A stretch of 64,000 nt of DNA from the human T2T-CHM13v2.0 reference genome, Homo sapiens. Position numbers and translations under genes: made by a program. The stretch lies in the NCBI RefSeq assembly GCF_009914755.1, contig NC_060931.1; one strand, written 5' to 3'. Positions 15,098 through 44,680 of the stretch are shown here, piece after piece (position 1 is the stretch's first letter; the number at the start of each line of letters is the position of its first letter). The notes under the pieces were generated by a model. The model was not told where the DNA came from. It saw only the letters and a list, made by a program, of their open reading frames with translations, and made no database searches.

Positions 15098-15118
15098 CAC
15101 ATATACATATATATGTAT
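15031..15118. repeat. (TA)n(TG)n(TA)n compound microsatellite in Alu tail
   Basis: Directly visible. Confidence 0.95.
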
Positions 15119-20391: not shown

Positions 20392-20886
<495 letters not shown>

Positions 20887-24539: not shown

Positions 24540-27500
24540 AAATGCAAGCACAAGAAGGCTCCAGGCTTGGGAGGCCAAGGTGGGTGGATCGCTTGAGGTC
24601 AGGAGTTCGAGACCAGCCTGGCCAACATGGCGAAACCCTGTCTCTACTTAAAAAGAAAAAAATCAGCTGGGCGTGGTGGTGGATGCCTGTAATCCCAGCT
24701 ACTTGGGAGGCTGAGGCAGGAGAATTGCTTGAAGTCCAGAGGTGAGGGTGCAGTGAGCCGAGATCGCACCACTGCACTCCAGCCTTGGGCGACAGAGTGA
24801 AACTCTTCTCTCAAAAAAAAAAAAAAAAAAAAAAAAAGAAGGCTCCAGGCCTCAAACGGGAGACTGAAGTGCAGGGAGTCCAGGTGGCCATAGGGAGTCA
24901 AGGTGGCTGTCCACATCAGTGATTCTTATCTGAGGTGGGGGGTGGGTTTCACCCGAGGGAGGGCTGGGGGCATGGACCCCCAGGCAGGCCTATCCAATCA
25001 TCTGAAGGGTGAGCAGTGTTCAGCTCAGAAAAAGTAAAGGAAAAAAAAAGCAATCTCTAAAAGGAACATAGACAATAGCAAAAGAAGAAACCGAGCCCAA
25101 AAGATGCTTCTGATAGGCCGCCTTGGGGTCCTGCATCCTCGGGTGAGAATCACTGGTGGATGTGGGAGGATGGAGAGCCGGGCAGATACGTGGAGTGCGA
25201 GGGGAAGACGCACGTGCAGTGGGGCTGATGGAGGCCATCAGGGTCAAGACTGTCAGGTGTGGGAACACAGTTCCCGACAGACCAGGACAAGGATGACAGC
25301 TAACAAATGGATGTAGCTGAAAAGGCAATGGGACCACGGTGGTGCAGCTGGGGTTTCCAACGCCTCGGTCCCAGACTCAAGGACTCAGGTGGAGGAGTGA
25401 GGCCCAGAGAAGGGCCCAGTGACTCAGAGGAAGTGGGCTGTGCGGGTGAGAGCAGAGAGCAGGGGATCTGTTGTCACGGGGAGGAAAGGCACAAAGGGGA
25501 ATGGAGACAGCGTGGAAGGAGAGCGTCTTGAAGACATCGGTGCTAAGGAGGGAGGAGGCAGGAGGAGGGTGGGACTGACAGGAGCACCCAGGAGGAGCGG
25601 AGGAGCCGGGTCTCAGGCAGGGCGGGAGAGTCAGGTTGAGACTGGGTGCGTTTGTGCTGGCGGGGCAGGGGGATGAGGGTGGGTAGGTGGAGGCGGGACA
25701 GGAGTGAGCGCTGATGACAAAAGTGCTGTGGTGACAGGAAGAAGGTAGGAAATTCACAGGCGCATGTTCCCCAGAGTGTTTTCACAAGAATGTGAAAGAA
25801 AGGATGCAAAGGGAATTGAGAAGGTTTTGGGGAGTCAGGGTTGTGGGGTGCTGGAAGGTACCCATAGCCTGGACCACTGGGATGTGGACACTGATAGCTG
25901 GGCAGAGCAGGTGGATTCAGTGCAGTACGTGTGATGCAGAGATGACTGCATCTGGTGGAGCAGCGGGTGCGGGGCCAGGTCAAGAAGGGAGGAGGTACCT
26001 GAGTTCACGACTTAGGCCAGTGGGAGAATCACAGATTGTGCTGAAAAAATGCAGGAGGGTGCAGGTGGGACAGTACCGTGCTATGCAGTAGAGGAGGAAA
26101 GCAGGAGAAACGACCAACCTGCGCCCCAGGGGCTGACTGCTGGGACATCAGGGGATGAGTTTGCAACACATGGGAGAGGAGGACAGAGGAGAGGTGTTCC
26201 CTAATGGGCAAGAAGAATGAGTCGGAGCAGGCAATGGAGCCCAGCAGCTAAGAGAGGAGAGCCTGTTGAGAGCAGGAGGGATGCGCTGCAGTAAAGGAGG
26301 CATGCCAGGCGCCAAGAGGGAGGGAGCGGATGCAGAGAATCCAGGGACTTTACCCCAGATGGGGCAAAGTGTGTGACGCAGTTCATGGATGACAAAGCAT
26401 AGTGTGGGTAAGATAAGCAAGGAATGAAAGAGAGGTGGGAGGAGGCCAAGGAAGAAGCAGGGCATAGAAGTGCTGCTACCTTGGAAACACAGGGGACCAC
26501 GTGTCAATGAAGGGTGTGGTGAGATGATGAAAGGTCAGGTGGATTGAGTTCGACAGAGGAAAGGACTGTGTCCGCCATGGTGGAACAGACAAGGTAGGAT
26601 GGTTTCAAACAGCAGATGGACTCAGTACAGCATGCTGGGGATAAAGAGGCTGTGGCAATGGTGGCAGCAGTGAGGGTAGGGAAGGAAGAATTGGATGCTG
26701 AAGACGAAGTGGAGGGTGTCTGGAAGAGAACAGTGGGAGAAAATGGGTGGATGAGTGATGCAAGGTTTTAATGTGAATCCTGAGGAGAAAAAGAGAGACG
26801 TGGGAGTGGGGCAGCCATTTGAGGTGGCATATGGGATGCATGTTGGGTCACGTAAGTGAATAGGAAAAGAAAGGGACTGAAAGCATTTAACAGGAGACAA
26901 CCTCACAAATCTGTGGGGGTGATGAATGCTGGTCAAGGGGCCAAGGTGGAAAAGTGAGGGGAATGCAGAGTTCTCAAACTGGGGCACTGACAGATCTCAT
27001 GTGAAAAGTTGGTTTCATGACCGTCATCAAGGCCAGACTGTAGGATCAGAGCAGATGCAAGAGCCCAGGAATATGCGGAACTAGGTCCACAGGAGAATGT
27101 GGGGGATGGGGACAAATGACTCAGGTTAAATGAAGGAAATAGCATCACTGCATGGTAAGATGGCACTGGGCATGGTAACCTCAGGGACTTGGCAATGGAC
27201 TCGTGGTTTGAGTCTATTGTGTGGGTAGAAAGATGCTTGCAAATAGTGGAGGAGTAGTTAGGAACCAATGCAGAGGAAGCAATTCAGAATGATCACTGAA
27301 TCTGAGCTTCTGCTGTCACGGAAGGCTAAAAGGATAGAGATATAGCTTACAGCTGAAAGTATGTACATAGAGATGAAATAAAGTAGGCAAGGGAGAGTCT
27401 CAAACACAGTGGGTCTCGTAGTTGTAATGGGAGTTTAGATCAGTATCAGCTGGGTACATGGGACAGAGTATGGCCAAGGACTGGAGAGAGCTGGGGTGTT

Positions 27501-30500
27501 TGGTGCTGGAGTGTGGACTTCATTTATGGAAAACTTCATCTAGAGGAAAACAGGAGGAAAAGCAGAGGAGGACAGAGAGTGGGACCTATGTAAGAAGGTC
27601 TTAAATTCTACACACGGGTGTTGTGAAGGTAGTGCAACCAAGAGGGAAAGAAGAAATGAGTGACCTGGACAGCCTGAATGGGTAACGAAAGGGTAGATGT
27701 GATGGGCAGGGATGCATCAGCTCACTGGGGCCGCACCTGAGGTAAATGGAAATAAAGGAGGTGAGGAAAGGAGGAAGAGAAGGAAGTGGCGGGACTGGCT
27801 GTGGAGTTTTGTGGGAGCCTTCTTGATGGGACAGAAAGAAAAAAGAGGAGAAAAGGCTGGAGTGTAAGAGGGGAAGGAAAAGGCAGCCTAAGGGAAGGCG
27901 CTGGCCTGAATCAGTGGAAGATCTGGAGGAGCAACAGAAAACAGTTCTTGAAGAGAAGGTGGGATAGAGAGAGGAAGGAAAAGTTTGAGCGGTGAGGAGA
28001 GCAGGTCAAAGTAGTGAGCACATCCCTATGGAGAAGAGATGACTGAGCCCGATGAAGCAATAGGCCCTGGGTGGTTGAGAGAAATATGGGCCACAGACAG
28101 GCAGGTACCTTCCCTTGGCCAAGGAAGCAAGGAGAAGAAATGTGGACGCAAGGGGAAAGGCTTCAAGAAAGAATGTGGAAGTGGGACGATAAGGCAGCGC
28201 AACGGGGGAGTCACCTACAGAAGACAGGGTGGAGGGGCCCCCAGGGAAGGATGGAGGGCAGAAAGCGTGGTGGAAGGGAGCTGGGCAGGACAGCCACAGG
28301 CAGGACAGCCATAGGTGGAGTGAGGTGAAGGGGCAGGTCCCAGAGTAGGAACAAAGGAATTTGGAGTGCTCAGAGCAGCCTGCAAGGTTCAGCATGGGGA
28401 AGGGAAAGTATAAGAGGGGTGGACAGCAATGGGCAGGAAGGAATGACTGCTCTTAAAGCCTTGAACTTTGTTGCAAAGGTGTGAATCTTGGGCCAGGCTC
28501 TTTACTACGGATCCGGCGGGAAAGGGTGGGTGGTGGGGATGGGGTTCGGGGTGGGATTTGGGATTGGGTTTGGGATGGGGTTTGGGTGGGGGTTGGGAGC
28601 AGTGGGATTGCAAGTGGGAAAGGGGTGGGGATATGGGTGGGGGTGGGAATGGGGGTGGGGGGAGGCAAACCAAACTCTAGGCATTTGAAAAACCATCTTA
28701 CTTAATTGAGCTGGTGGACTATTACATGTTGACTACTGGGGGTGATGGATACTGGCTGGAGAAGACCTCTGAATCCAGTAGAGTAGCTTCAGGTAGGGTG
28801 GAAGTTCAAAGTAAAGAGACTGAGGCAAACAGGAAGCCCCTGAAGGACCTGATGGGTGTCCATAACACCTGACAGTCATATGGGTAGGTGGGGCCACAAG
28901 TGTGTCTGTAGGGATTTTAAAGAACAAATCTCTCATACAGAGTGGATTTTGAGACATGTGTGTTTCAGTGAGTAGACAGGGAGGAGAACAAGGTGATTTC
29001 AAGCAGAGAGTGCCTGGCATACATGGGGGTAAGGGAGGGAAATGCTAAGGTCTTTGAGTAGGAAGTGTAGCTGGAACTGCAAAGTAATAAATGCTGGAAA
29101 TGGCAGAGTAAAGGCCAGGGAGTCAAGGTGGCTGTCCACAGCAGTGATTCTTATCTGGGGTGGGGGGTGGGTTTCACCCGAGGGAGGGCTGGGGGCATGG
29201 ACCCCCAGGCAGGCCTATCCAATCATCTGAAGGGTGAGCAGTGTTCAGCTCAGAAAAAGTAAGGGGAAAAAAAAGCAATCTCTAAAAGGAACATAGACAA
29301 TAGCAAAAGAAGAAACCGAGCCCAAAAGATGCTTCTGATAGGCCGCCTTGGGGTCCTGCATCCTCGGGTGAGAATCACTGGTGGACACGGGAGGATGGAG
29401 AGCCGGGCAGACATGTGGAGTGAGAGGGGAAGATGCATGTGTGGCAGGGCTGATGGAGGCATCAGGGTCAAGACTGTCAGGTGTTAGAACACAGTTCCTG
29501 ACAGACCAGGACAAGGATGACAGCGAACAAATGGATGTAGCTGAAAAGGCAATGGGACCACGGTGGTGCAGCTGGGGTTTCCAACGCCTCGGTCCCAGAC
29601 TCAAGGACTCAGGTGGAGGAGTGAGGCCCAGAGAAGGGCCCAGTGACTCAGAGGAAGTGGGCTGTGCGGGTGAGAGCAGAGAGCAGGGGATCTGTTGTCA
29701 CGGGGAGGAAAGGCGCAAAGGGGAATGGAGACAGCGTGGAAGAAGAGCGTCTTGAAGACATCGGTGCTAAGGAGGGAGGAGGCAGGAGGAGGGTGGGACT
29801 GACAGGAGGACCCAGGAGGAGCGGAGGAGCCGGGTTTCAGGCAGGGCGGGAGAGTCAGGTTGAGACTGGGTGCGTTTGTACCCGTGGGATGTGGGGGAAG
29901 AGGGTGGGCAGGTGGAGTGGGGACAGCAGTGAGCGCTGATGACAAAAGTGCTGTGGTGACAGGAAGAAGGTAGGAAATTCACAGGCGCATGTTCCCCAGA
30001 GTGTTTTCACAAGAATGTGAAAGAAAGGATGCAAAGGGAATTGAGAAGGTTTTGGGGAGTCAGGGTTGTGGGGTGCTGGAAGGTACCCATAGCCTGGACC
30101 ACTGGGATGTGGACACTGATAGCTGGGCAGAGCAGGTGGATTCAGTGCAGTACGTGTGATGCAGAGATGACTGCATCTGGCGGAGCAGCGGGTGCGGGGC
30201 CAGGTCAAGAAGGGAGGAGGTACCTGAGATCACGAATTAGGCCAGTGGGAGAATCACAGATCGTGCTGAGAGAATGCAGGAGGGTGCAGGTGGGACAGTA
30301 CCGTGCTATGCAGTAGAGGAGGAAAGCAGGAGAAACGACCAACCTGCGCCCCAGGGGCTGACTGCTGGGACATCAGGGGATGAGTTTGCAACACATGGGA
30401 GAGGAGGACAGAGGAGAGGTGTTCCCTAATGGGCAAGAAGAATGAGTCGGAGCAGGCAATGGAGCCCAGCAGCTAAGAGAGGAGAGCTTGTTGAGAGCAG

Positions 30501-33500
30501 GAGGGATGCGCTGCAGTAAAGGAGGCATGCCAGGCGCCAAGAGGGAGGGAGCGGATGCAGAGAATCCAGGGACTTTACCCCAGATGGGGCAAAGTGTGTG
30601 ACGCAGTTCATGGATGACAAAGCATAGTGTGGGTAAGATAAGCAAGGAATGAAGGACAGGAGGGAGGATGGCAATAGACAAGGAGGATGTAGAAGATGCT
30701 GGCACCTTGGAAAAGCTGGGCACCACAGTGTCAATGAAGGGCATGGGAACTGATGAAATGTCAGGTGGATTGACTTTGAGACAGGAAACAATTGTCTCCA
30801 GCATAGTAGAACCAAAAATGTAGGACGGTTAAGGGTGCCTTAAGATAGCAGATGGATCCAATGCTGCATATTGTGGATAAAAAGGATGGCAATGTTGGCA
30901 GCAGCAAGGGCAGGGCAGGAAGGGAGCTGACATCAAGGAAATGACTGCAGAGTGCAGTCATTGACTTAGAAAGTGGCAGAGGAGGGAGTGGATGCTGAAG
31001 ATGAAGCTGAGGGTCTCTGGAAAATAACAGTAGGGGGATGTGCAGTACATATTAACTAGAAAAACAGAAACTGCTCTAAAGTCCTCAAGGCATGATGTCA
31101 GACTCAAGATGGGTCCAGGAAGTTGATGGACATAAAAAAGGACAGAAGGTGCATGATAGGGGGAGAATCTCATGAATTTGAGGGTCTCAACATTGGTAAA
31201 GGGGCCAAGTGAATAGAGGGGAGGCAGAATTCAGAGTCCCAAACTGAGGTGTCCGCAGATCTCAGGATACGTTGGTGGTATGCCTGGTATTAAGACCAGA
31301 CCACAGAGGCAGAATGAAGCAATAGCTCCAGCAGCCTTTAGGAGAAAGTGGGTTAAGGGCCAAAGTGATTGGTTAAACAAAGGAAGCTGGTCAGCACTGC
31401 ACACTAACATGGCACCTGCATAAAAACCACAGACAGGTAACTTTAGGGACTTCACAGTGGACTCAAGCAGACTGATCCCAGATTGTAGGTAGAAGTGTGT
31501 TTGCAAAGGCCAGAGGAGCTGTTAGGACATAATGCGATGGAGACAATTTGCAACAATCACTGAATCCACGTTTCTGCTGTTTAAGGGTGGCTGAAAGGAT
31601 GGAGGTATAGCTTGTAATGCAAAATATACGCAGAGGTTCATAGTGAAGCTGAGGAGGAGGGCCTTCAAAAGTTAAGTGGGAGATGTTTAGGTCAGTAGCA
31701 AATGGGCCCAGTGGGAGAGAGTATGCCCAGAGTTTGGAGAGGGTCAGGGTGTCGGGTGCTGGGATGAGGGCTTCATGTTTGGAAGACGCAAGGTAGAGAG
31801 CAAGAGAGGAGGAAAGGTAGAACAGGATGGAGGGCAAGACCTGTGTAAGAAGAAGTCTTAAACTGTAAACATGGGTGTAGTGAGGGTAGTGTGGCTAAGA
31901 GGAAATGGATCCAGATGGGCTTGATGGGGAGCAGATGGGCAGGCACGATGGCAGGGGTGCATCGGCTCACTGGGGCTGCATCTGAGGTAAATGGAAATAA
32001 AGGAGGTGAGGAAATGAGGAAGAGAAGGAAGTGGCGGGACTGGCTGTGGAGTTTTGTGGGAGCCTTCTTGATGGAACAGAAAGAAAGAAGAGGAGAAAAG
32101 GCTTGAGTGGAAGAAGGGAAGGAAAAGGCAGCCTAAGGGAAGGCGCTAGCCTGAATCAGTGGAAGATCTGGAGGAGCAACAGAAAACAGTTCTTGAAGAG
32201 AAGGTGGGATAGAGAGAGGATGGAAAAGTTTGAGCAGTGAGAGCAGGTCAAAGTAGTGAGCACATCCCTATGGAGAAGAGATGACTGAGCCCGATGAAGC
32301 AATAGGCCCTGGGTGGTTGAGAGAAATATGGGCCACAGACAGGCAGGTACCTTCCCCTGGCCAAGGAAGCAAGGAGAAGAAATGTGGACGCAAGGGGAAA
32401 GGCTTCAAGAAAGAATGTGGAAGTGGGACGATGAGGCAGTGCAACAGGGGAGTCACCTACAGAAGACAGACAGGGTGGAGGGGCCCCCAGGGAAGGATGG
32501 AGGGCAGAAAGAGTGGTGGAAGGGAGCTGGGCAGGACAGCCACAGGTGGAGTGAGGTGAAGGGGCAGGTCCCAGAGTAGGAACAAAGGAATTTGGAGTGC
32601 TCAGAGCAGCCTGCAAGGTTCGGCATAGGGAACGGAAAGTGTAAAAGGGGTGGACAGCAATAGACAGGAAGGAATGGCTGTTTTTAAAGCCTTGAACTTT
32701 GTTGCAAAGGTGTGAATCTTGGGCCAGGCTCTTTACTACGGATCCGGTGGGGAAGGGTGGGTGGTGGGGATGGGGTTCGGGGTGGGGTTTGGGTCTGGGT
32801 TGGGGATGGGGTTTGGGTGGGGGTTGCATGGGAGGGCAGGGTTGGGAATGGTGGGAGTGGGGCAGGGCATGGGGAGAGGGAATCAGGGTGGGTGGGGGGT
32901 GGGGAGTGGGGTATGTTGAGCCAAGCCCCCAGCATTGAGAACACCACTGTATTTAACTGATAGATTATATATGTTCAGGGTTGAGGGTGATGAATTCAGG
33001 CTAGGGAAGACCCTGAATCCAGGGAAAAAAGAAAGTAGCCTCACGTAGGGTGCAAGGTCAAGGTAAGGGGCTGGATTCTTACAAACAAAAAGGATTATGT
33101 GGATCAAAAGGGAAGTCTCTTAGAGGGGGGCACCTTACCACAAAAGTGGTGATTAAGGAAAAGGGACAATAGTCAACACCCAGAAGAACAGGTGGAGGCC
33201 AAAGGTAAGGACAGAGTACCTGAGAGTCCTATCAGGTGGCAGGGAGGGGCACAAAGGGTGGGGTGGGAGGCACTGAAAGAACAACTCTCACAAAGAGTGG
33301 GATTCCACCTATGTTGTATTTCAGAGAGAAAATAAGGAAGGGAATGCGGTAGTTCCACGTGGAGAGTGCCAGGCCTATTTGAGAGGGGCAGAGGAGGAAA
33401 TGCTGAGATATTTGATTAAGAAGTTAAAGGAAAGCACTAGAATGCTCCAGGCCTGAAACTGGAGAGACTGAAGTGCAGGGAACCAAGGTGGTCGCAGGGA

Positions 33501-36500
33501 GTCAAGGTGGCCGTCCACAGCAGTGATTCTTATCTGGGATGGGGGGGTGGGTTTCACCCGAGGGAGGGCTGGGGGCACGGACCCCCAGGCAGGCCTATCC
33601 AATCATCTGAGGGGTAAGCAGTGTTCAGCTCAGAAAAAGTAAGGGAAAAAATCAATCTCTAAAATGAACGCAGACAATAGCGAAAGAGAAAACCGAGCCC
33701 AAAAGATGCCTCTGATAGGCCGCCTTGGGGTCCTGCATCCTCGGGTGAGAATCACTGGTGGACACGGGAGGATGGAGAGCCGGGCAGACATGTAGAGTGA
33801 GAGGGGAAGACGCACGTGCAGCAGGGTTGATGGAGGCATCAGGGTCAAGACTGTCAGGTGTGGGAACATAGTTCCCGACAGACCAGGACAAGGATGACAG
33901 CAAACAAATGGATGTAGCTGCAAAGGCAATGGGACCACGGTGGTGCAGCTGGGGTTTCCAACGCCTCGGTCCCAGACTGGAGGACTCAGGTGGAGGAGTG
34001 AGGCCCAGAGAAGGGTCCAGTGACACAGAGGATGTGGGCTGTGCGGGTGAGAGCAGACAGCAGGGGATCTGTTGTCATGGGGAGGGAAGGCGCAAAGGGG
34101 AATGGAGACAGCGTGGAAGGAGAGCGTCTTGAAGATATGGGCGCTAAGGAGGGAGGAGGCAGGAGGAGGGTGGGACTGACAGGAGCACCCAGGTGGAGCG
34201 GAGGAGCCGGGTCTCAGGCAGGGCAGGAGAGTCAGGTTGAGACTGGGTGCATTGGTGTGGATGTGAGGAGGAGGGTGGGGGGAGATAAGAGTGAGTGCTG
34301 ATGACAAAACTGCTGTGGTGACAGGAAGAAGGCAGGGGATTCAGAGGCAGAGGCTCCCCAGAATGTTTTCACATGGTGTGAGAGAGAAGGGTGTGAAAGG
34401 TATCGGGAAGGCTTCTGGGAGTCAGGGTTGTGGTGTGCTGGAAAAGTCCCATAGCCTTGGCCACTGGATCGTGAGCATGGACAGCAGAGGAGGTGGATTC
34501 GGTGCAGTACGTGTGACGCAGAGATGACTGCATCTGGTGGAGCAGTGGGTGCGGGGCCTGGTCAAGAAAGGAGGACACACCTGAGAACATGAATTAGGCC
34601 AGTGGCAGAATCACAGATCGTGCTGAGAGAATGCAGGATGGTGCAGGTGGGACAGTACCATGCTATGCAGTAGAGGAGGAAAGCAGGAGAAATGACCAAC
34701 CTAGGCCCAGGAGCTGGGAGCTTGGAGAGCAGAGGGTGAGTTTGCAGCACGTGGAAAAGCAGGACAGAGGAGAGGTGTTTCCCAATGGGCAAGAAGAATG
34801 AGTTGGAGCAGGTTATGGAGCTGAGCAGCTTAGAGAGGTGAGCTTGTTGAGAGGATCAGGGAATATGTTCCAGCAAGGGAGAATTTGCATCAAAATCCTT
34901 GGTTTTGCTGTTCAGGAATGGCAGAAATGAATGGAGGTGTAGCTTGTGAAGCAAAATATTCACAAGGAGAAAGAGACAGCCTGAAGCTCTAAGGTGTAGG
35001 GGTTGGGGCACAAGGGTGGGGGTGGGAGGTCCTATGCCAAGGACCAATAAGGAGGGAGAGACATGGGGAATCCAGAGACTTTACAAAGTCTATGAAGAAG
35101 CCCATGGAGGAGAAATCATGGTACAGGTAAGACAAGCAAAGAATGAGGGAGAGGTGGGAGGAGACCAAAGTGGAAGGAGGGTGCAGCGGTTTGGCACCTC
35201 AGAAATGTTGGGACAATGTATCAGTGAGGGAGAAGGTGAGAGGAAGGAAGGTCGGGGGGATGCCATCTAGAGAGGAAACCAGTGTCTCCCTAGTGGCAGA
35301 ACGGAGAAGGTAGAATGATCAGAGCTCAAATCAGACAGTAGATGAATGAATACAGCATGTTAGGGACAAAGAAGCTGGCAGTGGCAACAACAGTGAGGGC
35401 AGGTCAGGCTGGGAGCAGACATTAAGGAAAAGACTCCTGAGTGCACTGACTGACCCTGAGGTGGTAGGGAACATGGACTAGATGCTGAAGACCAATCAGA
35501 GGGTTTCATAAAGACAACAGTGTAAGAAAAGGCAGAGGATGGCTGGTGAAAGGGTCCACACTTTATCCAGTCTGGAGTCAGAAGGCACTATGTGGGTCGT
35601 GAGATGGGTCAGTGATGTTGATGGAAAAAGAAAGGGACAGGAGGGGCGTAAGAGGAGAAATAACCTCATGAATTTATTGGGGTGGGGTGGGGGGGGGTGG
35701 AGCAGAGTTGAGCTTTGATAGAGGAACCAACATGGAAAACAGGAAGATGGAACAAAGAATTCCCAAAATGGGGGTGCGCCAGACCTCATGGTGCAAATTG
35801 TTGAAATAAGCAGTATTAAAGCCAGATCATAAGAGCAGAGCAGATCGAAGAAGCAAGAGCCTGGGCATTTTTGCAAATTGAGGCCCTTAGGAGAAAATGG
35901 GGGAAAGGGCCAAAGTAACTGGGGTTACAGAGAGGGCATCAGGAATCACTGCACATGAAGACAGCACCTCCACAGAAACCACCGGCAGGGAACTCAGGGA
36001 CTTGGTGATGGACTCATATCGTTTGAGTCCAGCATGTGGGGAGAAAGATGCTTATAAAATGGCAGAGGAGGGACTGCTAAGCAATGCACAGAAGACAATT
36101 TGCAGTAATCACTTAATCCTTGGTTTTGCTATCCAAGAGTGGGAGAAAGATATGGAGGTGCAGCTTTCGAAGCAAAATATCCACAGATGTCATGAGGCTC
36201 CAATGGGGGTGGGGGGCACAGGCTTCATACCTAGTGGAGCATCATAGGATTAGTGGGAAAAGTAGGTCGGTAGCAAATGGGGATGCAGCAATACAGAGTA
36301 AATCCAGTGGTAGTCAGGGTGGCAGAGATGGGTAGAGGCAAGGGTAATTCTTTCTTGGAGGCAAGAGTGGAGGAAAGGTAGAACAGGACGGAGGCCAGAA
36401 CCTGTGTAAGAAGGTCTTAAATCCTAAACACAGGTGTAGTAAAGGTAGTGTGGCCAAGAGGGAAAGAGGAAACGGTGGATCTGGACAGCCACAATAGCAA

Positions 36501-39500
36501 GCAATATGGGCAGGGGTGCATGGGCTCACTGGGGCCCTATCCAAGGTAAATGGAAATAATGGAGATGAAGAAAGGAGGAAGAGGAGGAAGTAGCGGGACT
36601 GGCTGTAGAGTTTTGTAGGAACTCACTTCATGGAACAGAAAGAGAAAAGAGGAAACAAGGCTGGAGTGGAAGAGGGGAAGGAAAAGGCAGCCGTAAGGGA
36701 AGGCGCTGGCCTGAATCAGTGGAAGATCCGGAGGAGCAATAGAAAACAGTTCTTGAAAAGAAGGTGGGATAGAGAGAGGATGGAAAAGTTTGAGCGGTGA
36801 GGAGAGCAGGTCAAAGTAGTGAGCACATCCCTATGGAGAAGAGATGACTGAGTCAGATGAAGCGACAGGCCCTGGGTGGCTGAGAGAAATATTGGCCACA
36901 GACAGGCAGGTACCTTCCCTTGGCCAAGGAAGCAAAGAGAAGAAATGTGGATGCAAGGGGAAAGGCTTCAAGAAAGAATGTGGAAGTGGGACAATGAGGC
37001 AGCGCCGACAGGGGAGTCACCTACAGAAGACAGACAGGGTGGAGGGGCCTCCAGGGAAGGATGGAGGGCAGAAAGCATGGTGGAAGGGAGCTGGGCAGGA
37101 CAGCCATAAGCAGGACAGCCACAGGTGAAGCGAGGTGAAGGGGGAGGTCCCAGAGTAGGAACCAAGGAATGTGGAGTGCTCAGGGCAGCCTGCAAGGTTC
37201 GGCATGGGGAAGGGAAAGTGTGAAAGGGGTGGACAGCAATGGGCAGGAAGGAATGGCTGCTCTTAAAGCCTTGAACTTTGTTGCACAGGTGTGAATCTTG
37301 GGCCAGGCTCTTTACTACGGATCCGGCAGGGAAGGGTGGGCTGGGTGGAGGGGATGGGGTTTGGGGTGGGGTTTGGGTATGGGATGAATGGGTGGGGCAG
37401 GGTTAGGGGCAGTGGGACTGGGACTGGGGGAGGGGTTGGGGTGGGGTGAAGTGGGCCAAGCTGTAGGCATTGAGAACACCATCTTATTCATCTGAGCTGG
37501 TGGACAATTACATGTTGAGTGTTGAGGTTGATGAATACAGGCTAGAGAAGACATCTGAGTCCGGCAAAAGAAGAAAAAACAGAGTAGCTCAGGAAGGGTA
37601 AAAGGTTAAGGTAAAGGGCTGGTTTCTGGGAAACAAACAGGATGATGACCACCAAATGGGAAGTCTCTCTGGGGGCACCTGGTCAGTGATATGAAAAGAG
37701 GAGGGATGATGAAGGAAAAATGTCAGTAGTAAGGGCCTACGAAAATTAGATTGAGGCCAAAGGTATTAACTGAGTGCCTGGGAGTCATATTAGATGGGTC
37801 AGGGCATAAAGGGTGGGGTGTGGAGGTGTCAGAAGCGCAACTCTCTCATGCAGACTGGGCTTTTGGGCACGATGTGTGTTAAGGGGTAAATGGGGCAGAC
37901 AATGAGGTGGTTCCAAGTGGAGAGTGCCAGGACTGTTGGGCAGGGGGAGGGAAATGCTGGTCTTATGAGTAGGAAGTGTACCTGGAAATACCAAAATACT
38001 AAATGCTAGAAATAGGAGAGTAAAGGCCAGGGAGTCAAGGTGGCCGTCCACAGCAGTGATTCTTATCTGGGGTTGAGGGGTGGGTTTCACCCGAGGGAGG
38101 GCTGGGGACATGGACCCCCAGGCAGGCCTATCCAATCATCAGAGGGGTGAGCAGTGTTCAGCTCAGAAAAAGTAAGGGAAAAAAACAATCTCTAAAAGGA
38201 ACACAGATAATAGCAAAAGAAGAAACCCAGCCCAAAAGATGCTTCTGATAGGCTTCCTCGGGGTCCTGCATCCTCGGGTGAGAATCACTGGTGGACGCGG
38301 GAGGATGGAGAGCCGGACAGACATGTACAATGTGAGGGGAAGATGCACGTGCAGCGGGGCTGATGGAGGCATCAGGGTCAAGACTGTTAGGTGTGGAAAC
38401 ACAGTTCCCGACAGACCAGGACAAGGATGACAGCGAGCAAATGGATGTAGCCGAAAAGGCACCGGGACCATGGTGGTGGAGCTGGGATTTCCAGCGCCTC
38501 GGTCCGAGACTCGAGGACTCAGGTGGAGGAGTGAGGCCAAGATAGGGGCCCAGTGACACAGAGGAAGTGGGCTGTGCGGGTGAGAGCAGAGAGCAGGGGA
38601 TCTGTTGTCACGGGGAGGGAAGGTGCAAAGGGAAATGGAGACAGTGTGGAAGGAGAGCGTCTTGAAGACATGGGCCTTAAGGAGGAGGGAGGAGGTGGGA
38701 GGAGGGTGGGACTGACAGGAGCACCCAGGAGGAGCAGAGGAGCTGGGTCTCAGGCAGGGCAGGAGAGTCAGGTTGAGACTGGGTGCATTCGTACCGGGGG
38801 GACGAGGATGGGCAGAAAGTGGGACACGAATGAGTGACAAAGACAAAACTACTCTGGTGACAGGAAGAAGGTAGGAGATTCAGAGGCAGAGGCTCCCCAG
38901 AGTGTTTTTCCACAGTGTGAAAGAAAGGATGAGAAAAGAATCAGGAAGGTTTAGGGGAGTCAGGGTTGTGGGGCCCTGGAAAGGACTCATAGCCTGGGCC
39001 ACTGGGACGTGAGCTTGGACAGCAGAGCGTGTGGATTCAGTGCAGTACGTGTGACACAGAGAGGACTGCATCTGGTGGAGCAGTGGGTGCGGGGCCAGGT
39101 CAAGAAGGGAGGACACACCTGAGAACACGAATTAGGCCAGTGGCAGAATCACAGGTGGTGCTGAGAGAACGCAGCATGGTGCAGGTGGGACAGTACCGTG
39201 CTATGCAGTAGAGGAGGAAAGCAGGAGAAACGACCAACCTGGGCCCAGGAGCTGGGAGCTGGGAGAGCAGAGGGTGAGTTTGCAGCATATGGGAGAGCAG
39301 GACAGAGGAGAGGTGTTCCCCAATGGGCAAGAAGAATGAGTTGGAGCAGGTTATGGAGGCCAGCAGCTTACAGAGGTGAGCTTGTTGAGAGGATCAGGGA
39401 ATGTACTGCAGCAAGGGAGGCATGCCAAGAGCAAGAGTGTGGGTGTGAACGTAGAGAATCCTCCTTTTTGCCCAAAAGGGGCGAAGTGTTTGATGCAGGT

Positions 39501-42500
39501 CATGGAGGAGAAAGCATGGTGTGGGTAAGACACGGAAGGAATGAAGGAGAGGTGAGATGAGGCCACAGAAACAGGGTGTAGAGGTGTTGGCACCTTGGAA
39601 ACATTGAGGACCGTGTGTCAATAAAGGGCATGGCGAGACGATGAAAGGCCAGAGGACACAACAGAGAGAGGAAACCACTGTTCCTTAGAGGCAGAACTGA
39701 GAATACAGGACGGTTAGGGGTGAACTGAGACAGCAGATGGACTCAGTACAGGAAGTTGAGGACATGGAAGCTGGCAGTGGTGTCATCAGTGGGGGCAGGG
39801 CAGGAAGGGGTCAGAGTTCAGGAAAGATTCCTGAGTCTGTGGATTGACCTGGCGGAGACAGGGCACGCAGGACTGGATGTTGAAGAGGAGGTGGAGCATG
39901 TCTGGAAGATGAAAGTGGGAGGAAACAGTGGTGCAGGAATTAAATGTGAACCTTGTGTGGAAAAAGTGAGACATTGGAGTGGAGCAGCCACATGGAGGTG
40001 GTGTGATGTGAGTGGGGTCAGGGAAGTTGATGGGAAAAGAAAGAGATTTGTGGTGCAGGAGGGGAAAGAACATCATGAAGTTGTGGGGAGCTTAGTGTCT
40101 GTACAGGGTCCGATGCAGAAAAGGGGAAGGAGGAAATCAGAGTTCCCCAAATGGGGTTTTATCAGATCTCAGGGAAGTTGGTATCATGCTTCTTATCAAG
40201 GCCAACCCATAGGATTACGGTAGGGAGGCAAAATCCCAGGCTTTTCAGAAGTGGATCCTTAGGAAAGGAAAGTAGGGGGAAGGTGCCTAAGTCACTCAGG
40301 GTAAATGGAGGAAATGGGGCATCACTGCACATTCAGACAGCACCTGCATGGAACGTACTGGCAGGTAAACCTTGGGGGCTGGGGGCCTGGGGGGGATGGA
40401 CTCATGTGTTTTGAGTCTAGTATGTGGGCAGAAAGATACTTGCAAGTGTTAGAGGGAACTAATGGAGAGAAGACAATTCCTAGTGACCACTGAGTCTGAA
40501 CCTCTGTTGTCAAGGGAGCCTGAGAGGATGGAGGTGTAGCTTGCAACTGAAAATATGCACTACACCACACTTCACTACAGAGGTGCAGTGAAGTAGGAAG
40601 CGGGGGCCTTCAAACACAGGTAGCATCTTAGATTTAGTGGGAGATTAGGTCAGTAGTAAATGGGCACAGTGGGCATGCCCAGAGTTTGGATAGGATGAAG
40701 GTTTGGGTGCTGATACGGGGGCTTCATTTTTGGAAACTTTTTCCAGAGGGCAGAGAGGAGGAAAGGCAGAACAGGATGGATGGCAGGACCTGTGTAAGAA
40801 GAAGGTCTTAAATTCTAAACAAGGGTATAGTAAAGGTAGTGTGGCCAAGAGGGAAAGAAGAAATGGTGGATCCAGATAGCTTCAATGGGTACTGCAAGAT
40901 CAGGTGTGATGGGCAGGGGTGCATGGGCTCACTGGGACCCTATCCAAGGTAAATGGAAATAATGGAGATGAAGAAAGGAGGAAGAGGAGGAAGTGGCGGG
41001 ACTGGCTGTAGAGTTTTGTAGGAACTCACTTCATGGAACAGAAAGAGAAAAGAGGAAACAAGGCTGGAGTGGAAGAGGGGAAGGAAAAGGCAGCCTAAGG
41101 GAAGGCACTGGCCTCAATCAGTGGAAGATCTGGAGGAGCAACAGAAAACAGTTCTTGAAGAGAAGGTGGGATAGAGAGAGGATGGAAAAGTTTGAGCGGT
41201 GAAAGCAGGTCAAAGTAGTGAGCACATCCCTATGGAGAAGAGATGACTGAGTCAGATGAAGCGACAGGCCCTGGGTGGCTGAGAGAAATACTGGCCACAG
41301 ACAGGCAGGTACCTTCCCTTGGCCAAGGAAGCAAAGAGAAGAAATGTGGATGCAAGGGGAAAGGCTTCAAGAAAGAATGTGGAAGTGGGACGATGAGGCA
41401 GCGCCAACAGGGGAGTCACCTACAGAAGACAGACAGGGTGGAGGGGCCCCCAGGGAAGGATGGAGGGCAGAAAGCATGGTGGAAGGGAGCTGGGCAGGAC
41501 AGCCACAGGCAGGACAGCCATAGTTGGAGCGAGGTGAACGGGGAGGTCCCAGAGTAGGAACAAAGGAATGTGGAGTGCTCAGGGCAGCCTGCAAGGTTCG
41601 GCAGGGGAAGGGAAAGTGTGAAAGGGGTGGACAGCAATGGGCAGGAAGGAATGGCTGCTCTTAAAGCCTTGAACTTTGTTGCAGAAGTGTGAATCTTGGG
41701 CCAGGGTCTTTGCTATGGATGCAGTGGGGAAGGGTGGGTTGGGTGAAGGGGATGGGGTTTGGGATGGGATTTGGGTTGGGACTGACTGGGTTGGAAAGGA
41801 GGGAAGGATTGGGAGCAGTGGGGTGTGAGTGGGAGAGGAGGTAGGGAACCAGATGGGGAGAATCGAGCCAAGTTCTGGGTTGGAGGAAACTTTCTTATTT
41901 AACTGAGCTGGTGGGTTACATATCTAATGTTGCAGGTGATGAATACAGGCTGGGGTAGCCGTCTAAATCCACCGAAAGAAGTAAATGAAAGTGGTTTCTT
42001 GTAGGTCGAAAGGTCAAGGTAAATGGCTGGTTTTTAGGAAACAACTGAGAACTCGGGAAACAAAGGGGGAAGTTTCTGCAGGCCGATCTTGTAAGGGATC
42101 TGAAAAAAGGGGTGGGGATTAAGGAAAACTGACAATAGTAAGCACCCATAAGAAACAGGTTGAGGCCGAAGATACTGACACAGGGCCTAAGAGTCCTATC
42201 AGGTGGGAGGACAAGACGTATCGGGTGGGGAGGCATTAAAAGAACAAGTTTCCAATGCAGACTGGTGTTTGGGGTCAGAGGTGTGTTAAAGGGCAAATAG
42301 GGAAGGAATGAAGTGGTTCCAAGCAGAGAGTTCCAGGCCTAATGGGGGTGGGCAGACAAAAGATGAGATGTGTTAAGTGGGAAGTTAAATGGCAAGTACT
42401 AGAATGCCACCTATGGCAAGCACTAGAATGGTCTAGGTGTGAAATGAGGGAGTAATGTCAGGGAGTCAAGGTGGCCATCCATAGCAGTGATTCTTATCTG

Positions 42501-44680
42501 GGGTAGGGGGTGAATTTCACGTGGAGGGAGGTCTCTGGACATGGACCCCCAGGCAGGGCTATCCAATCATCTGAGGGGTGAGCAGTGTTCAGCTCAGTAA
42601 AAGTAAGGGAAAAAAAATAGCAGTCTCTAAAAGGAACATAGACAATAGCAAAAGAAGAAACCAAGCCCAAAAGATGCTTCTGATAGGCCGCCTTGGGGTC
42701 CTGCATTCTTGGGTGAGAATCACTGGTGGATGCGGGAGGATGGAGAGCCGGGCAGACACGTGGAGTGTGAGGGGAAGACGCACGTGCAGTGGGGCTGATG
42801 GAGGCATCAGGGTCAAGACTGTCAGGTGTGGGAACACAGTTCCCGACAGATCAGGACAAAGATGACAGCGAGCAAATGGATGTAGCCGAAAAGGCACCGG
42901 GTACCCTGGTGGTGGAACTGGGTTTTCCAATGCCTCGGTCCCAGACTCAAGGTGGAGGAGTGAGGCCTAGAGAAGGGCCTAGTGACACAGAGGAAGTGGG
43001 CTGTGCGGGTGAGAGCAGAGAGCAGGGGATCTGTTGTCACGGGGAGGGAAGGTGCAAAGGGAAATGGAGACAGTGTGGAAGGAGAGCGTCTTGAAGACAC
43101 GGGCCTTAAGGAGGGAGGAGGTGGGAGGAGGGTGGGACTGACAGCAGCACCCAGGAGGAGCAGAGGAGCTGAGTCTCAGGCAGGGCAGGAGAGTCAGGTT
43201 GAGACTGGGTGTGTATGGGGTGGGAGATGAGGACGGGCAGAGAGCGAGACACGAGTGAGTGACAAAGACAAAATTGCTATGGTGATAGGAACAAGGTAGG
43301 AGATTCAGAGGCAGATGTTCCCCAGAGTGTTTTTACACAGTGTGAAAGAAAGGATGAGAAAAGAATCAGGAAGGTTTAGGGGAGTCAGGGTTGTGGGGCC
43401 CTGGAAAGGACTCATAGCCTGGGCCACTGGGACGTGAGCTTGGACAGCAGAGCGTGTGGATTCAGTGCAGTACGTGTGACACAGAGAGGACTGCATCTGG
43501 TGGAGCAGTGGGTGCGGGGCCAGGTCAAGAAGGGAGGACACACCTGAGAACACGAATTAGGCCAGTGGCAGAATCGCAGGTGGTGCTGAGAGAACGCAGC
43601 ATGGTGCAGGTGGGACAGTACCGTGCTATGCAGTAGAGGAGGAAAGCAGGAGAAACGACCAACCTGGGCCCAGGAGCTGGGAGCTGGGAGAGCAGAGGGT
43701 GAGTTTGCAGCATATGGGAGAGCAGGACAGAGGAGAGGTGTTCCCCAATGGGCAAGAAGAATGAGTTGGAGCAGGTTATGGAGGCCAGCAGCTTACGGAG
43801 GTGAGCTTGTTGAGAGGATCAGGGAATGTACTGCAGCAAGGGAGGCATGCCAAGAGCAAGAGTGTGGGTGTGAACGTAGAGAATCCTCCTTTTTGCCCCA
43901 AAGGGGTGAAGTGTTTGATGCAGGTCATGGAGGAGAAAGCATGGTGTGGGTAAGACACGGAAGGAATGAAGGAGAGGTGAGATGAGGCCACAGAAACAGG
44001 GTGTAGAGGTGTTGGCACCTTGGAAACATTGAGGACCGTGTGTCAATAAAGGGCATGGCGAGACGATGGAAGGCCAGAGGACACAACAGAGAGAGGAAAC
44101 CACTGTTCCTTAGAGGCAGAACTGAGAATACAGGACGGTTAGGGGTGAACTGAGACAGCAGATGGACTCAGTACAGCAGGTTGAGGACATGGAAGCTGGC
44201 AGTGGTGTCATCAGTGGGGGGCAGGGCAGGAAGGGGTCAGAGTTCAGGAAAGATTCCTGAGTCTGTGGATTGACTTGGAGGTGGCAGGGCATGCAGGACT
44301 GGATGTTGAAGATGAAAAGGAGTTTCTGGAAGATGACAGTGGGAGGCAACACTGTGTGTAGACTGTGCAAATTTACACTGGCATACCACATGGAATGAGA
44401 GAGTCTGGCAGCCATTCTAAGGCAGTTATTGGGATGTAAATTTGATGACGGAAGTTTATGGTAAAAGAAGGGACAGGAGGCAGGTAGGAGGGGAGATAAC
44501 CTTATGAATTTGTGCAGGGCTTAGCATCAGTAAAAGGGCTGACATGGAATAGGGGAAGGTGGAATGCAGAGTTCCCAAAGTGGGGGCACTGGCAAATCTC
44601 AGGGGCAAGTCAGTGGTATGTTCGGTATCATGGCTGAGTGTAGGAGCATTTTAGGGAATAGAAGTTAAATCCTAGACGAC
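24540..44680 (+). repeat. Macrosatellite: five tandem ~4.2-4.5 kb units (fifth incomplete)
   Basis: Anchor 'tcca..cagtgattcttatctg...ccaatcatc' recurs at 24908, 29133, 33512, 38045, 42476; duplicated ORFs in the track at offsets 4225, 4399, 4425. Confidence 0.95.
24567..24836 (+). mobile_element. 5'-truncated AluS at the left edge of the macrosatellite
   Basis: TSD aagaaggctccaggc on both sides. Confidence 0.92.

What the first reader, a model, noticed from the sequence alone, without database searches (positions are those of the whole stretch)
24540..44680. Intronic macrosatellite downstream of imprinted MEST: candidate repeat-domain lncRNA system
Seen: five head-to-tail 4.2-4.5 kb units, G/A-rich on +. 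Each unit is block A (~1.5 kb, conserved, CpG-containing, hairpin-rich), block B (diverged), block C (~0.8 kb, conserved), a G-tract and block D (diverged); copy 5 stops in B. Established (recalled): mouse Mest has long neural read-through transcripts (MestXL) into Copg2 that reduce paternal Copg2 expression, and human COPG2IT1 is a paternally expressed antisense RNA in intron 20. Inference: the array could be the functional repeat core of a >40 kb MEST-direction RNA, analogous to the repeats of XIST, FIRRE or DXZ4, and could vary in copy number.
Basis: partly seen in the sequence, partly recalled or inferred. Interest (0 to 1): 0.8.

Follow-up and report, generated by a model that had tools for sequence, protein, structure and literature searches.

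The report
Old G-rich tandem array behind MEST
A real, very old five-unit tandem duplication fills half of one COPG2 intron just downstream of the imprinted gene MEST, and its one-sided G-richness could help MEST read-through transcription dampen COPG2, but this role is untested.

Summary
Window 24838-~44673 is a head-to-tail array of 4.6 units of 4.2-4.5 kb, and every genome-wide match to it lies inside it. The blocks are as described: A and C are alike between copies (K2P 0.02-0.19), while B and D are homologous but near saturation (K2P 0.40-0.64 in B). So the duplication is ancient, and A and C are kept alike by gene conversion, possibly with constraint.

The + strand is 67% purine and 37% G. 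It holds 19 of the window's 20 + strand G4 motifs, and none lie on the - strand within the array. Each unit starts with a ~260-nt inverted repeat (z -4.4).

I found no CpG island, no CTCF consensus, no Pfam domain, no known RNA family and no snoRNA-like element. The XIST, FIRRE and DXZ4 analogies therefore fail on the features I could test.

The array lies between the MEST 3' end and COPG2IT1. In mouse the equivalent stretch is the body of the paternal MestXL transcript, and it was an assembly gap in 2011. My best reading (0.4) is that the array is the body of human MESTXL and an R-loop/G4-prone interference zone. A neutral passenger duplication is about equally likely. No searched paper describes the array.

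The parts
24563..24837 (+). Alu element at the 5' edge of the array. Not part of the repeat unit.
   Evidence: It matches the other dispersed ~300-bp repeats of the window. It gives Rfam SRP and Alu-derived miRNA sub-threshold hits. The target-site duplication AAGAAGGCTCCAGGC is seen on both sides.
24838..44673 (+). Whole tandem array: 4.6 head-to-tail units, G/A-rich on the + strand.
   Evidence: Self-blastn and an nhmmer profile of the units. All 4, 5, 9 and 5 genome-wide matches of block C, block A, unit 4 and the hairpin lie inside it.
24892..29116 (+). Unit 1 (4225 bp). Block A 24892-26282, B ~26300-27598, C 27599-28528, G-tract 28518-28662, D to 29116.
29117..33494 (+). Unit 2 (4378 bp). 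Block A 29117-30507, C 31856-32759, G-tract 32749-32911.
33495..38028 (+). Unit 3 (4534 bp). Block A 33495-34864, a unit-specific ~150-bp insertion 34883-35032, C 36415-37343, G-tract 37329-37455.
38029..42459 (+). Unit 4 (4431 bp). Block A 38029-39402, C 40806-41741, G-tract 41726-41833.
42460..44673 (+). Unit 5, truncated in block B. Block A 42460-43827. A weak possible remnant of the start of block C lies at 44717-44845.
24900..25170 (.). ~260-nt imperfect inverted repeat (long hairpin) that opens block A. Paralogous copies lie at 29125-29395, 33504-33772, 38037-38305 and 42468-42740.
   Evidence: MFE -105.7 kcal/mol, z -4.35 on + and -5.50 on -, with 0 of 200 shuffles as stable. 81 predicted pairs, 97.5% of cells paired in the five copies, but covariation is not above shuffles. 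The five copies are the only ones in the genome.
28518..28662 (+). G-tract of unit 1, a (GGGATGGGGTTT)n-type G4-forming microsatellite. The same element lies at 32749-32911, 37329-37455 and 41726-41833.
   Evidence: TRF and the G4 motif scan
10378..45000 (+). GC-skewed, purine-rich domain covering COPG2 intron 20 up to COPG2IT1. The array is its G-richest distal half.
   Evidence: GC skew is +0.24 to +0.42 in 5-kb windows here, against 0.009 +/- 0.10 in the rest of 264 kb.
45155..48597 (+). COPG2IT1 (annotated), the likely 3' end of human MESTXL. AGTAAA at 48574-48579 and a GU-rich stretch 48598-48622 flank its end.
   Evidence: Hub annotation; sequence read. In mouse, Mit1/Lb9 is the 3' end of MestXL (PMC13691114 Discussion).
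48484..48508 (-). Poly(A) signal (AATAAA on the - strand, 48508-48503) and end of the short COPG2 isoform. It is convergent with the COPG2IT1 end and overlaps it by 114 nt.
   Evidence: Hub annotation (other COPG2 transcripts, exon 48484-49542); sequence read.

Best explanation
The feature is an ancient, locus-specific tandem duplication of about 4.6 units of 4.4 kb. It fills the distal half of COPG2 intron 20.

Two parts of each unit, blocks A and C, have stayed alike. Gene conversion explains this, and constraint may add to it. The rest of each unit has drifted to near saturation.

The array lies inside the paternal MEST read-through transcription unit (MESTXL), which ends at the COPG2IT1 poly(A) site. 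It is therefore most likely the bulk of that nuclear RNA.

Proposed mechanism (inferred, not shown):
1. When Pol II bypasses the MEST poly(A) sites, as happens in neural cells in mouse, it copies the array in the sense that gives G-rich RNA.
2. G clusters in block A, block C and the G-tract nucleate R-loops. G4 structures form on the displaced strand, and one long hairpin forms per unit.
3. These slow the polymerase and hold the RNA at the locus.
4. This builds a five-fold repeated obstacle for the convergent COPG2 polymerases on the same paternal chromosome.
5. Those polymerases then stop, or use the intronic poly(A) site at 48484, which gives the short COPG2 isoform.

On this reading the array acts as DNA and nascent RNA in cis. 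It does not act as an XIST-like protein-binding repeat domain.
For: Shown in the sequence:
- The array is real and locus-specific.
- Divergence is mosaic. K2P is 0.04-0.13 in A1, 0.02-0.19 in A2, 0.06-0.10 in C (three pairs computed) and 0.40-0.64 in B. B and D are truly homologous: 69-100% of the query aligned at 60-73% identity, against 0 for shuffled targets.
- Identity breaks abruptly. U4-U5 is 98-99% alike and then drops to 68%, which marks a conversion tract.
- 19 of the 20 merged + strand G4 motifs in the window lie in the array, and 0 lie on the - strand there.
- The array has 31 G4 motifs against 10.2 +/- 2.8 in dinucleotide shuffles of itself, with 0 of 100 shuffles as high.
- GGG runs reach 49.5 per kb, against 10-18 per kb elsewhere.
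- A rough re-implementation of a recalled R-loop-forming-sequence model gives 16 of 18 + strand hits in the array, covering 10.0 of 19.8 kb. It gives 0 hits on the - strand of the whole window, and the hits coincide with blocks A and C plus the G-tract.
- GC skew is +0.41 to +0.42 here, against 0.009 +/- 0.10 around. The sign is opposite to the slight negative skew of other COPG2 introns, so COPG2 transcription does not explain it.
- The hairpin has z -4.35 and is kept in 5 of 5 units.
- The strong 5' splice-site hexamer is depleted on + (9 against 17.8 expected, 0 of 100 shuffles as low). PAS hexamers are sparse at 0.45 per kb, against 1.8-3.8 per kb in the flanks.

From papers:
- Mouse MestXL runs from Mest through most of intron 20, and much of it is retained in the RNA. 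RefSeq models have terminal exons of ~22 and 7.5 kb (PMC13691114 Discussion).
- Paternal H3K36me3 covers ~40 kb within Copg2 (passage).
- MestXL is nuclear and sits at the Copg2 transcription site. Knock-down raises paternal Copg2 by 66% (PMC13547231 passages).
- Mouse and human intron 20 both had a gap in 2011 (PMC3287194 passages).
- Pig has a paternal antisense RNA here and paternal short COPG2 isoforms (PMC12969872 passages).
- The closest precedent is R-loops over the Snord116 repeat cluster, which modulate the paternal Ube3a-ATS (review PMC4169248 passages).
Against: - No expression, R-loop or methylation data for the human array were available. Transcription across it is inferred from the annotation and from mouse.
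- COPG2 is reported as biallelic in human brain (PMC13691114 Discussion passage), so the interference itself may be weak or absent in humans.
- The mosaic of alike and diverged blocks can arise neutrally, because conversion persists only where identity is still high.
- CpG sites decay freely. Only 4 of 42 CpG columns in A1 are intact in all five copies, and TG/CA products dominate. This looks like ordinary methylated intronic DNA.
- The hairpin shows no covariation above shuffles: 201 of 500 and 174 of 500 shuffles reach the observed values.
- The absence of Alu/L1 in the array is explained by few L1-endonuclease target sites: 0.2 per kb against 1.6-3.5 per kb.
- The G-skew covers all of intron 20, not only the array.
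- The splice-site depletion is one nominal result among 40 motif tests.
- The R-loop scan is my own approximation of a recalled model.
Confidence: 0.4

Rival explanations
1. Neutral passenger. This is an old intronic tandem duplication with no function of its own. Blocks A and C stay alike only because gene conversion sustains itself wherever identity is still high, and B and D escaped conversion by chance. Transcription through the array, if any, is incidental to MEST read-through, and interference would work equally well with any 20 kb of sequence.
For: - Pair-specific abrupt breaks in identity are typical of conversion tracts.
- GC content is higher in the alike blocks (0.55-0.60) than in B and D (0.46-0.50), as GC-biased conversion predicts.
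- CpG decays freely.
- There is no covariation in the hairpin.
- There is no CpG island, CTCF motif, coding domain or known RNA family.
- The Alu-free state is explained by a lack of target sites.
- A UPD7 methylation study found no extra DMR for COPG2IT1 or COPG2 (PMC4053454 passage).
Against: - The same block boundaries hold for all older pairs: A and C are 85-96% alike and B and D 35-69%. Chance escape would not obviously produce this.
- G4 clustering is three times what the array's own composition gives.
- The strand asymmetry is extreme and of the opposite sign to the host gene's.
- Gaps at the same place in the old mouse and human assemblies hint that the array is retained across eutherians (inference).
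Confidence: 0.4
2. First reader's reading. The array is an XIST/FIRRE/DXZ4-like repeat domain that recruits proteins such as CTCF or RNA-binding proteins, shapes chromatin or nuclear position, and varies in copy number.
For: - It is a tandem repetition inside a probable long nuclear RNA.
- Blocks are conserved between copies.
- G-runs at 49.5 per kb would offer many sites for G-run-binding proteins (recalled, not tested).
Against: - 0 CTCF consensus matches with up to 1 mismatch in 64 kb.
- CpG observed/expected is at most 0.47.
- There are only 4.6 copies at 77-93% overall identity.
- There are no short-period motifs other than the G-tract.
- There is no structure signal outside one hairpin.
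Confidence: 0.05
3. The array acts through the other strand. As part of the COPG2 pre-mRNA it is a 20-kb C/U-rich intronic tract that binds pyrimidine-tract proteins. It tunes intron 20 removal against use of the intronic poly(A) site at 48484 (short COPG2 isoform), independently of MEST.
For: - The - strand is 67% pyrimidine.
- An annotated short COPG2 isoform ends in this intron at 48484 with AATAAA.
- 10 Y10NCAG 3' splice-site-like motifs lie on the - strand of the array.
Against: - Those 10 motifs match expectation (12.1 +/- 3.2).
- The short isoform's poly(A) site lies upstream of the array in the COPG2 sense, so the array is transcribed only after that choice point.
- In pig the short isoforms are paternal, which points to an allele-specific cause such as MESTXL rather than to a property of the pre-mRNA.
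Confidence: 0.07
4. The repeated long hairpin is the functional part. Each unit supplies a ~260-nt double-stranded RNA that is edited or diced, or that keeps the RNA in the nucleus. This would resemble inverted-repeat Alus in 3' UTRs or the small-RNA host arrays of other imprinted loci.
For: - The hairpin has z -4.35/-5.50 and is kept in 5 of 5 units with 97.5% of cells paired.
- It lies in the best-conserved part of block A.
- Mouse MestXL is enriched in the nucleus.
Against: - Covariation is not above shuffles.
- No known miRNA or snoRNA family matches inside the array at E up to 5.
- There are 0 C/D-box candidates.
- The ~110-nt A-rich loop and the interrupted stems are unlike a canonical miRNA precursor.
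Confidence: 0.05

Closest known systems
SNORD116/SNORD115 tandem clusters inside the paternal SNHG14/UBE3A-ATS transcript (15q11-q13)
   Same: - Both are imprinted loci where a long paternal read-through transcript starts at the imprinting-centre promoter, is made in neurons, crosses a tandem array of kb-sized units, and runs antisense into a convergent gene whose paternal allele it lowers.
- R-loops over the Snord116 repeats modulate that transcript (review PMC4169248 passages). That the Snord116 units are GC-skewed is recalled, not checked.
   Different: - No snoRNA or other known small RNA lies in the units here.
- There are 4.6 copies rather than tens.
- The units are far more diverged.
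- The reduction of COPG2 is partial in mouse and is reported absent in human brain.
Immunoglobulin class-switch regions (recalled)
   Same: Kilobase-scale tandemly repetitive DNA with G clusters on the non-template strand. It forms R-loops and G4 only when transcribed in one sense.
   Different: Switch repeats have short units (tens of bp) and serve AID-targeted recombination. Here the units are 4.4 kb, complex in sequence, and lie in an imprinted intron.
DXZ4 / FIRRE / XIST repeat elements
   Same: Tandem repetition associated with a long nuclear non-coding RNA at an epigenetically regulated locus.
   Different: - No CTCF consensus and no CpG island per unit.
- Low copy number and high divergence.
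- No short repeated RNA motif.
Terminal GC skew and R-loop-assisted termination at 3' ends of closely spaced genes (recalled)
   Same: A G-skewed stretch on the sense strand downstream of a gene's poly(A) site, next to a convergent neighbour.
   Different: Those stretches are about 1-2 kb. Here the skewed domain is ~35 kb, half of it is a tandem array, and transcription is thought to continue through it rather than stop.

Membership tests
Macrosatellite of the DXZ4/D4Z4 type | Head-to-tail tandem units of a kilobase or more | tested here: met
   Units are 4225-4534 bp, with 4 full and 1 truncated.
Macrosatellite of the DXZ4/D4Z4 type | Many copies of high mutual identity (typically above 95%; recalled criterion) | tested here: not met
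   There are 4.6 copies. Long self-matches are 77-93% identical, and blocks B and D are 60-73% identical.
Macrosatellite of the DXZ4/D4Z4 type | Copy number polymorphic between people | not testable with these tools
   Only one assembly is held. The longest identical runs between units are 253 and 240 nt.
DXZ4/FIRRE-type CTCF-binding repeat | A CTCF site in each unit | tested here: not met
   The recalled consensus CCASYAGRKGGCRSY gives 0 matches with up to 1 mismatch in the 64-kb window. This tests the motif only, not binding data.
DXZ4-type repeat | A CpG island in each unit | tested here: not met
   The highest CpG observed/expected in 500-bp windows is 0.47. CpG columns decay to TG/CA.
XIST/FIRRE-type RNA repeat domain | Short repeated RNA motifs or modules within a mature nuclear lncRNA | tested here: not met
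   TRF finds only the G-tract and a few minor repeats. Whether the array is in a mature RNA could not be tested for human.
Imprinted small-RNA host array (SNORD116/115, C19MC, C14MC type) | Each unit encodes a snoRNA or miRNA | tested here: not met
   Rfam gives 0 hits at gathering score in the window and nothing credible inside the array at E up to 5. My C/D-box scan gives 0 candidates on both strands. Novel small RNAs are not excluded.
R-loop-prone G-skewed repeat (switch-region / Snord116-like) | G clusters and strong positive GC skew on the non-template strand of the relevant transcript | tested here: met
   GC skew is +0.41 to +0.42. 19 of 20 G4 motifs lie in the array. 31 motifs are seen against 10.2 expected. 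16 of 18 RLFS-like hits fall in the array and 0 on the other strand.
R-loop-prone G-skewed repeat (switch-region / Snord116-like) | Transcribed in the G-rich-RNA sense | not testable with these tools
   Inferred from the COPG2IT1 annotation and from mouse MestXL. I saw no human RNA data.
R-loop-prone G-skewed repeat (switch-region / Snord116-like) | RNA:DNA hybrids detected on the locus | not testable with these tools
   No DRIP data are at hand. A search for 'R-loop' with 'COPG2' gave 4 papers, none about this locus judging by their listings.

The most novel reading that the evidence does not exclude
The array is a sequence-encoded collision zone that has been kept since before the eutherian radiation. 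It has five modules, each with a long hairpin, two G-cluster blocks and a G4 microsatellite. The modules form R-loops only when read in the MEST sense. On this reading they are the actual cis-effector that turns neuron-specific MEST read-through into paternal-allele attenuation and premature polyadenylation of COPG2. It would be a snoRNA-less counterpart of the Snord116 R-loop region, and it went unseen because it was an assembly gap in both mouse and human.
Probability: 0.15. Interest if true: 0.75.

Novelty: new member of a known kind. Interest (0 to 1): 0.45.

Why it matters
MEST/COPG2 is a textbook case of imprinted transcriptional interference. Two 2026 studies still leave open whether the act of transcription or the MestXL RNA itself represses paternal Copg2.

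None of the papers I could search or read mentions that the body of this transcription unit is a tandem array with extreme one-sided G-richness. In 2011 the stretch was a gap in both reference genomes.

If the array matters, inverting it would separate 'any transcription' from 'this sequence in this sense', because inversion keeps length and read-through but swaps the strand. It would also show whether R-loop-prone repeats are a recurring device of imprinted antisense transcripts, as at Snord116.

If the array does not matter, it remains a clean example of block-wise concerted evolution in an old duplication.

Tried and rejected
- Transposon or coding origin: 15 of the 42 stop-free frames of at least 110 aa (the 15 I picked as longest) gave 0 Pfam families. 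The long - strand frames are a by-product of pyrimidine richness.
- Dispersed repeat family: rejected. All genome-wide matches are local. The search skips very common words, so this is a lower bound.
- Further decayed copies in the purine-rich flanks: none. nhmmer, also with --max, gave only 3 weak hits outside the array. The pre-Alu flank does not align to unit ends.
- CTCF array: 0 motif hits.
- CpG islands or a secondary DMR: not supported.
- Known RNA families: none.
- C/D snoRNA: none.
- PRDM9 13-mer as a cause of block-limited conversion: 6 sites in the array, not placed in blocks A or C, and the shuffle control is not matched to the array's composition. Uninformative.
- Alu/L1-free state as a sign of constraint: rejected, because target sites are 8-17 times rarer there.
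- Triplex-forming polypurine tracts: 9 runs of at least 20 nt against 4.2 expected, but these are paralogous copies of a few sites, and there is none of 25 nt or more. Weak.
- Poly(A)-signal depletion on +: not seen relative to composition (9 against 5.3 expected).
- RNA structure conservation by covariation: no signal.
- Literature searches for a prior description. All found nothing on the array:
  - macrosatellite + COPG2: 1 paper, unrelated
  - COPG2 + tandem repeat: 16 papers, none on this by title or abstract
  - macrosatellite + 7q32: 1 paper, unrelated
  - COPG2 + VNTR: 1 paper, unrelated
  - Lb9 + Copg2 + repeat: 4 papers
- The words 'repeat' and 'tandem' do not occur in PMC3287194 or PMC13547231. 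In PMC13691114 they occur only in other senses.
- Yamasaki 2000, Lee 2000 and Powell 2013 are not held, and subscription journals are not searched, so a description there cannot be excluded.
- Earlier findings of this scan were not open to the session.

Full report
THE OBSERVATION

A self-comparison of the window gives direct + strand matches at offsets of about 4.2-4.5 kb and their multiples between ~24840 and ~44585. All have E = 0, and identities run from 77 to 93% over 1.2-6 kb. Tiling unit 1 in 300-nt pieces recovers four further copies in register.

A global alignment of the units anchored on block A, together with an nhmmer profile built from that alignment, gives these coordinates:
- U1 24892-29116
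- U2 29117-33494
- U3 33495-38028
- U4 38029-42459
- U5 42460-~44650/44673, truncated

The profile finds nothing credible in the flanks. The sequence before the Alu at 24563-24837 does not align to unit ends. The array therefore starts at about 24838, right behind that Alu, whose target-site duplication is visible.

Between the older pairs (U1 or U2 against U3 or U4), identity is 85-96% in block A and block C. It is 35-69% in B, the G-tract and D, counting gaps. TRF finds one (GGGATGGGGTTT)n-type tract per full unit.

LOCUS-SPECIFIC AND NON-CODING

Searches of the whole T2T genome returned only hits inside the array:
- block C (600 nt): 4 hits
- block A (1446 nt): 5 hits
- unit 4 (4431 nt): 9 hits
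- the hairpin (271 nt): 5 hits

That tool skips very common words and scores only the best candidates, so this is a lower bound.

Fifteen of the 42 stop-free frames of at least 110 aa gave no Pfam family. The many long - strand frames follow from the lack of purines there. Rfam gave nothing at gathering score in the window. At E up to 5 it gave only Alu-derived hits and chance-level matches.

AGE AND MODE OF EVOLUTION

Between-copy distances differ five- to ten-fold between blocks (that script stopped before printing the remaining block C pairs and block D):
- A1: K2P 0.04-0.13
- A2: K2P 0.02-0.19, with subfamilies U1/U2 and U4/U5
- C: K2P 0.06-0.10 for the three pairs printed
- B: K2P 0.40-0.64

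B and D are nevertheless homologous. Between 69 and 100% of each query aligns in one or two HSPs at 60-73% identity. Shuffled targets align over 0%.

Identity also breaks abruptly and in a pair-specific way. U4-U5 is 98-99% alike over alignment columns 1600-2000 and then 68%. U1-U2 falls from 99% to 88%, 77% and 61%. These are the marks of gene-conversion or unequal-exchange tracts laid over an old duplication.

A distance of 0.4-0.6 between paralogues in one lineage is of the order of the human-mouse neutral distance. That figure is recalled, and the dating is a rough inference of about 100 million years or more.

CpG sites in block A decay freely. Only 4 of 42 CpG-bearing columns in A1 are CG in all five copies, and 81 of 106 non-CG states are TG or CA. 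CpG observed/expected never exceeds 0.47. So the units carry no protected CpG island.

The alike blocks are also the GC-richer ones, which fits GC-biased conversion. What conversion alone does not obviously explain is that the block boundaries are the same for all older pairs. That could mean constraint, or that conversion persists only where identity never fell too low. I cannot separate these two without other species.

COMPOSITION AND STRUCTURE-FORMING POTENTIAL

The + strand of the array is A 0.298, G 0.369, C 0.154, T 0.179.

In 264 kb around the window, 5-kb windows outside the array have a GC skew of 0.009 +/- 0.10. The windows from 10 to 45 kb, which cover COPG2 intron 20 up to COPG2IT1, have +0.24 to +0.42, and the array sits at +0.41 to +0.42. 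Other COPG2 introns show A>T on + but a slightly negative GC skew. The G-richness therefore has the wrong sign to be a by-product of COPG2 transcription.

The G-run evidence is as follows:
- G-runs reach 49.5 per kb, against 10-18 per kb elsewhere.
- 19 of the window's 20 merged + strand G4 motifs lie in the array, and none on the - strand there.
- Counted without merging, the array has 31 motifs against 10.2 +/- 2.8 in dinucleotide shuffles of itself, with 0 of 100 shuffles as high.
- A rough re-implementation of a recalled R-loop-forming-sequence model puts 16 of 18 + strand hits in the array. They cover 10.0 of 19.8 kb and coincide with blocks A and C plus the G-tract. There are 0 hits on the - strand of the whole window.

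The claim of hairpin richness reduces mainly to one element. Positions 24900-25170 form a long imperfect inverted repeat with MFE -105.7 kcal/mol, z -4.35 on + and -5.50 on -, and 0 of 200 shuffles as stable. It is kept in all five units, with 81 predicted pairs and 97.5% of cells paired. Covariation is not above shuffled controls, since 201 of 500 and 174 of 500 shuffles reach the observed values. Elsewhere block A is mildly more stable than shuffles (mean z -1.1 in 200-nt windows; -0.3 to -2.8 in 300-nt windows). Blocks B to D are not.

WHAT THE ARRAY IS NOT

- There is no CTCF consensus with up to 1 mismatch anywhere in the window (recalled motif).
- There is no C/D-box candidate.
- The PRDM9 motif is uninformative.
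- The absence of Alu and L1 inside the array is explained by 8-17 times fewer L1-endonuclease target sites.
- Polypurine runs are only modestly enriched and none reaches 25 nt.
- On the + strand the strong 5' splice-site hexamer is depleted (9 against 17.8, 0 of 100 shuffles as low). PAS hexamers are sparse at 0.45 per kb but not below what the composition gives. The first result is one nominal outcome among 40 tests.

CONTEXT FROM ANNOTATION AND PAPERS

The array lies between the MEST 3' end (8184) and COPG2IT1 (45155-48597). The COPG2IT1 end has AGTAAA 18 nt upstream and a GU-rich stretch downstream. It lies 774 nt before COPG2 exon 20. The mouse MestXL poly(A) site is given as about 720 bp before exon 20 (PMC13691114 Discussion).

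In mouse:
- MestXL starts at the Mest promoter, spans about 45 kb with about 38 kb inside Copg2, and retains much of intron 20 in the RNA. Mit1/Lb9 is its 3' end.
- Paternal H3K36me3 covers about 40 kb within Copg2 (passage).
- The RNA is enriched in the nucleus and sits at the Copg2 transcription site. Knock-down raises paternal Copg2 by 66% (PMC13547231 passages).

MacIsaac et al. wrote in 2011 that both the mouse and the human intron 20 sequences contained a gap. Without the gap, the mouse interval summed to a transcript of about 13 kb (PMC3287194 passages). Set against today's 38 kb, the missing mouse piece was of the order of 25 kb. This is my arithmetic and it is rough. It is the size and the place of the human array, which suggests, but does not show, that mouse has one too.

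Pig has a paternal antisense RNA here, and its short COPG2 isoforms are paternal (PMC12969872 passages). A study of chromosome 7 uniparental disomy found no extra DMR for COPG2IT1 or COPG2 (PMC4053454 passage). COPG2 is described as biallelic in human brain.

None of these texts mentions a tandem array. 'Repeat' and 'tandem' are absent from two of them and used in other senses in the third. Five targeted searches found no description. Three older papers are not held.

READING

What is shown is an ancient, locus-specific array that evolves in concert block by block. Its sequence is prone to R-loops and G4 in the MEST sense only, and each unit carries one strong hairpin.

What is inferred is that the array is transcribed as the body of human MESTXL, and that these properties slow polymerase, hold the RNA at the locus and obstruct the convergent COPG2 polymerases. 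Those polymerases would then stop or use the intronic poly(A) site at 48484. The closest precedent is the Snord116 repeat cluster inside Ube3a-ATS, where R-loops modulate the paternal transcript (review PMC4169248 passages).

I give this reading 0.4 and a neutral passenger duplication 0.4. The last failed every defining feature I could test.

VERDICT

As far as I could search, the array is an undescribed new member of a known kind. It gives the field a clean experiment, inversion of the array, on an open question at this locus. Interest 0.45.

Noticed in passing
window 48484-48597: The short COPG2 isoform (- strand; AATAAA at 48508-48503; end 48484) and COPG2IT1 (+ strand; AGTAAA at 48574-48579; end 48597) have convergent poly(A) sites, and their transcripts overlap by 114 nt. 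This fits the pig report that short COPG2 isoforms are paternal.
   Followed up: partly
window 10378-24562: The proximal part of COPG2 intron 20 is also purine-rich and GC-skewed (+0.24 to +0.36) although it is not part of the array and has a lower GC content (0.39-0.43). The skew is therefore a property of the whole intron.
   Followed up: partly
window 24892-25684 and paralogues (block A1): Among decayed CpG columns, TG states (55) outnumber CA states (26). That means more C-to-T change on the + strand, which would be the displaced strand in a MEST-sense R-loop. The cells are not independent events, and blocks A2 (26 against 21) and C (14 against 17) show no such excess.
   Followed up: no
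window 34883-35032: Unit 3 carries a ~150-bp insertion at the A/B border. Part of it (34893-34966) resembles a piece of block B (profile positions 2475-2547, E 9e-10).
   Followed up: no
L012 7884-9967 (about window 91.9-94.0 kb, outside the window): A GC-rich stretch with (CCCTCT)n followed by 37-49-bp and 127-bp VNTR-like repeats looks like an SVA retrotransposon in a COPG2 intron (family name recalled). It accounts for the only other G4-rich 5-kb window in the 264 kb examined.
   Followed up: partly
window 24553-24567 and 24838-24852: The Alu at the 5' edge of the array has a clean 15-bp target-site duplication, so it inserted within a few bases of the array boundary.
   Followed up: partly
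window 24838-24905: The unit junction lies only ~50-70 nt upstream of the long inverted repeat in every unit. A palindrome at the breakpoint could have promoted the original duplication by fork stalling or template switching.
   Followed up: no
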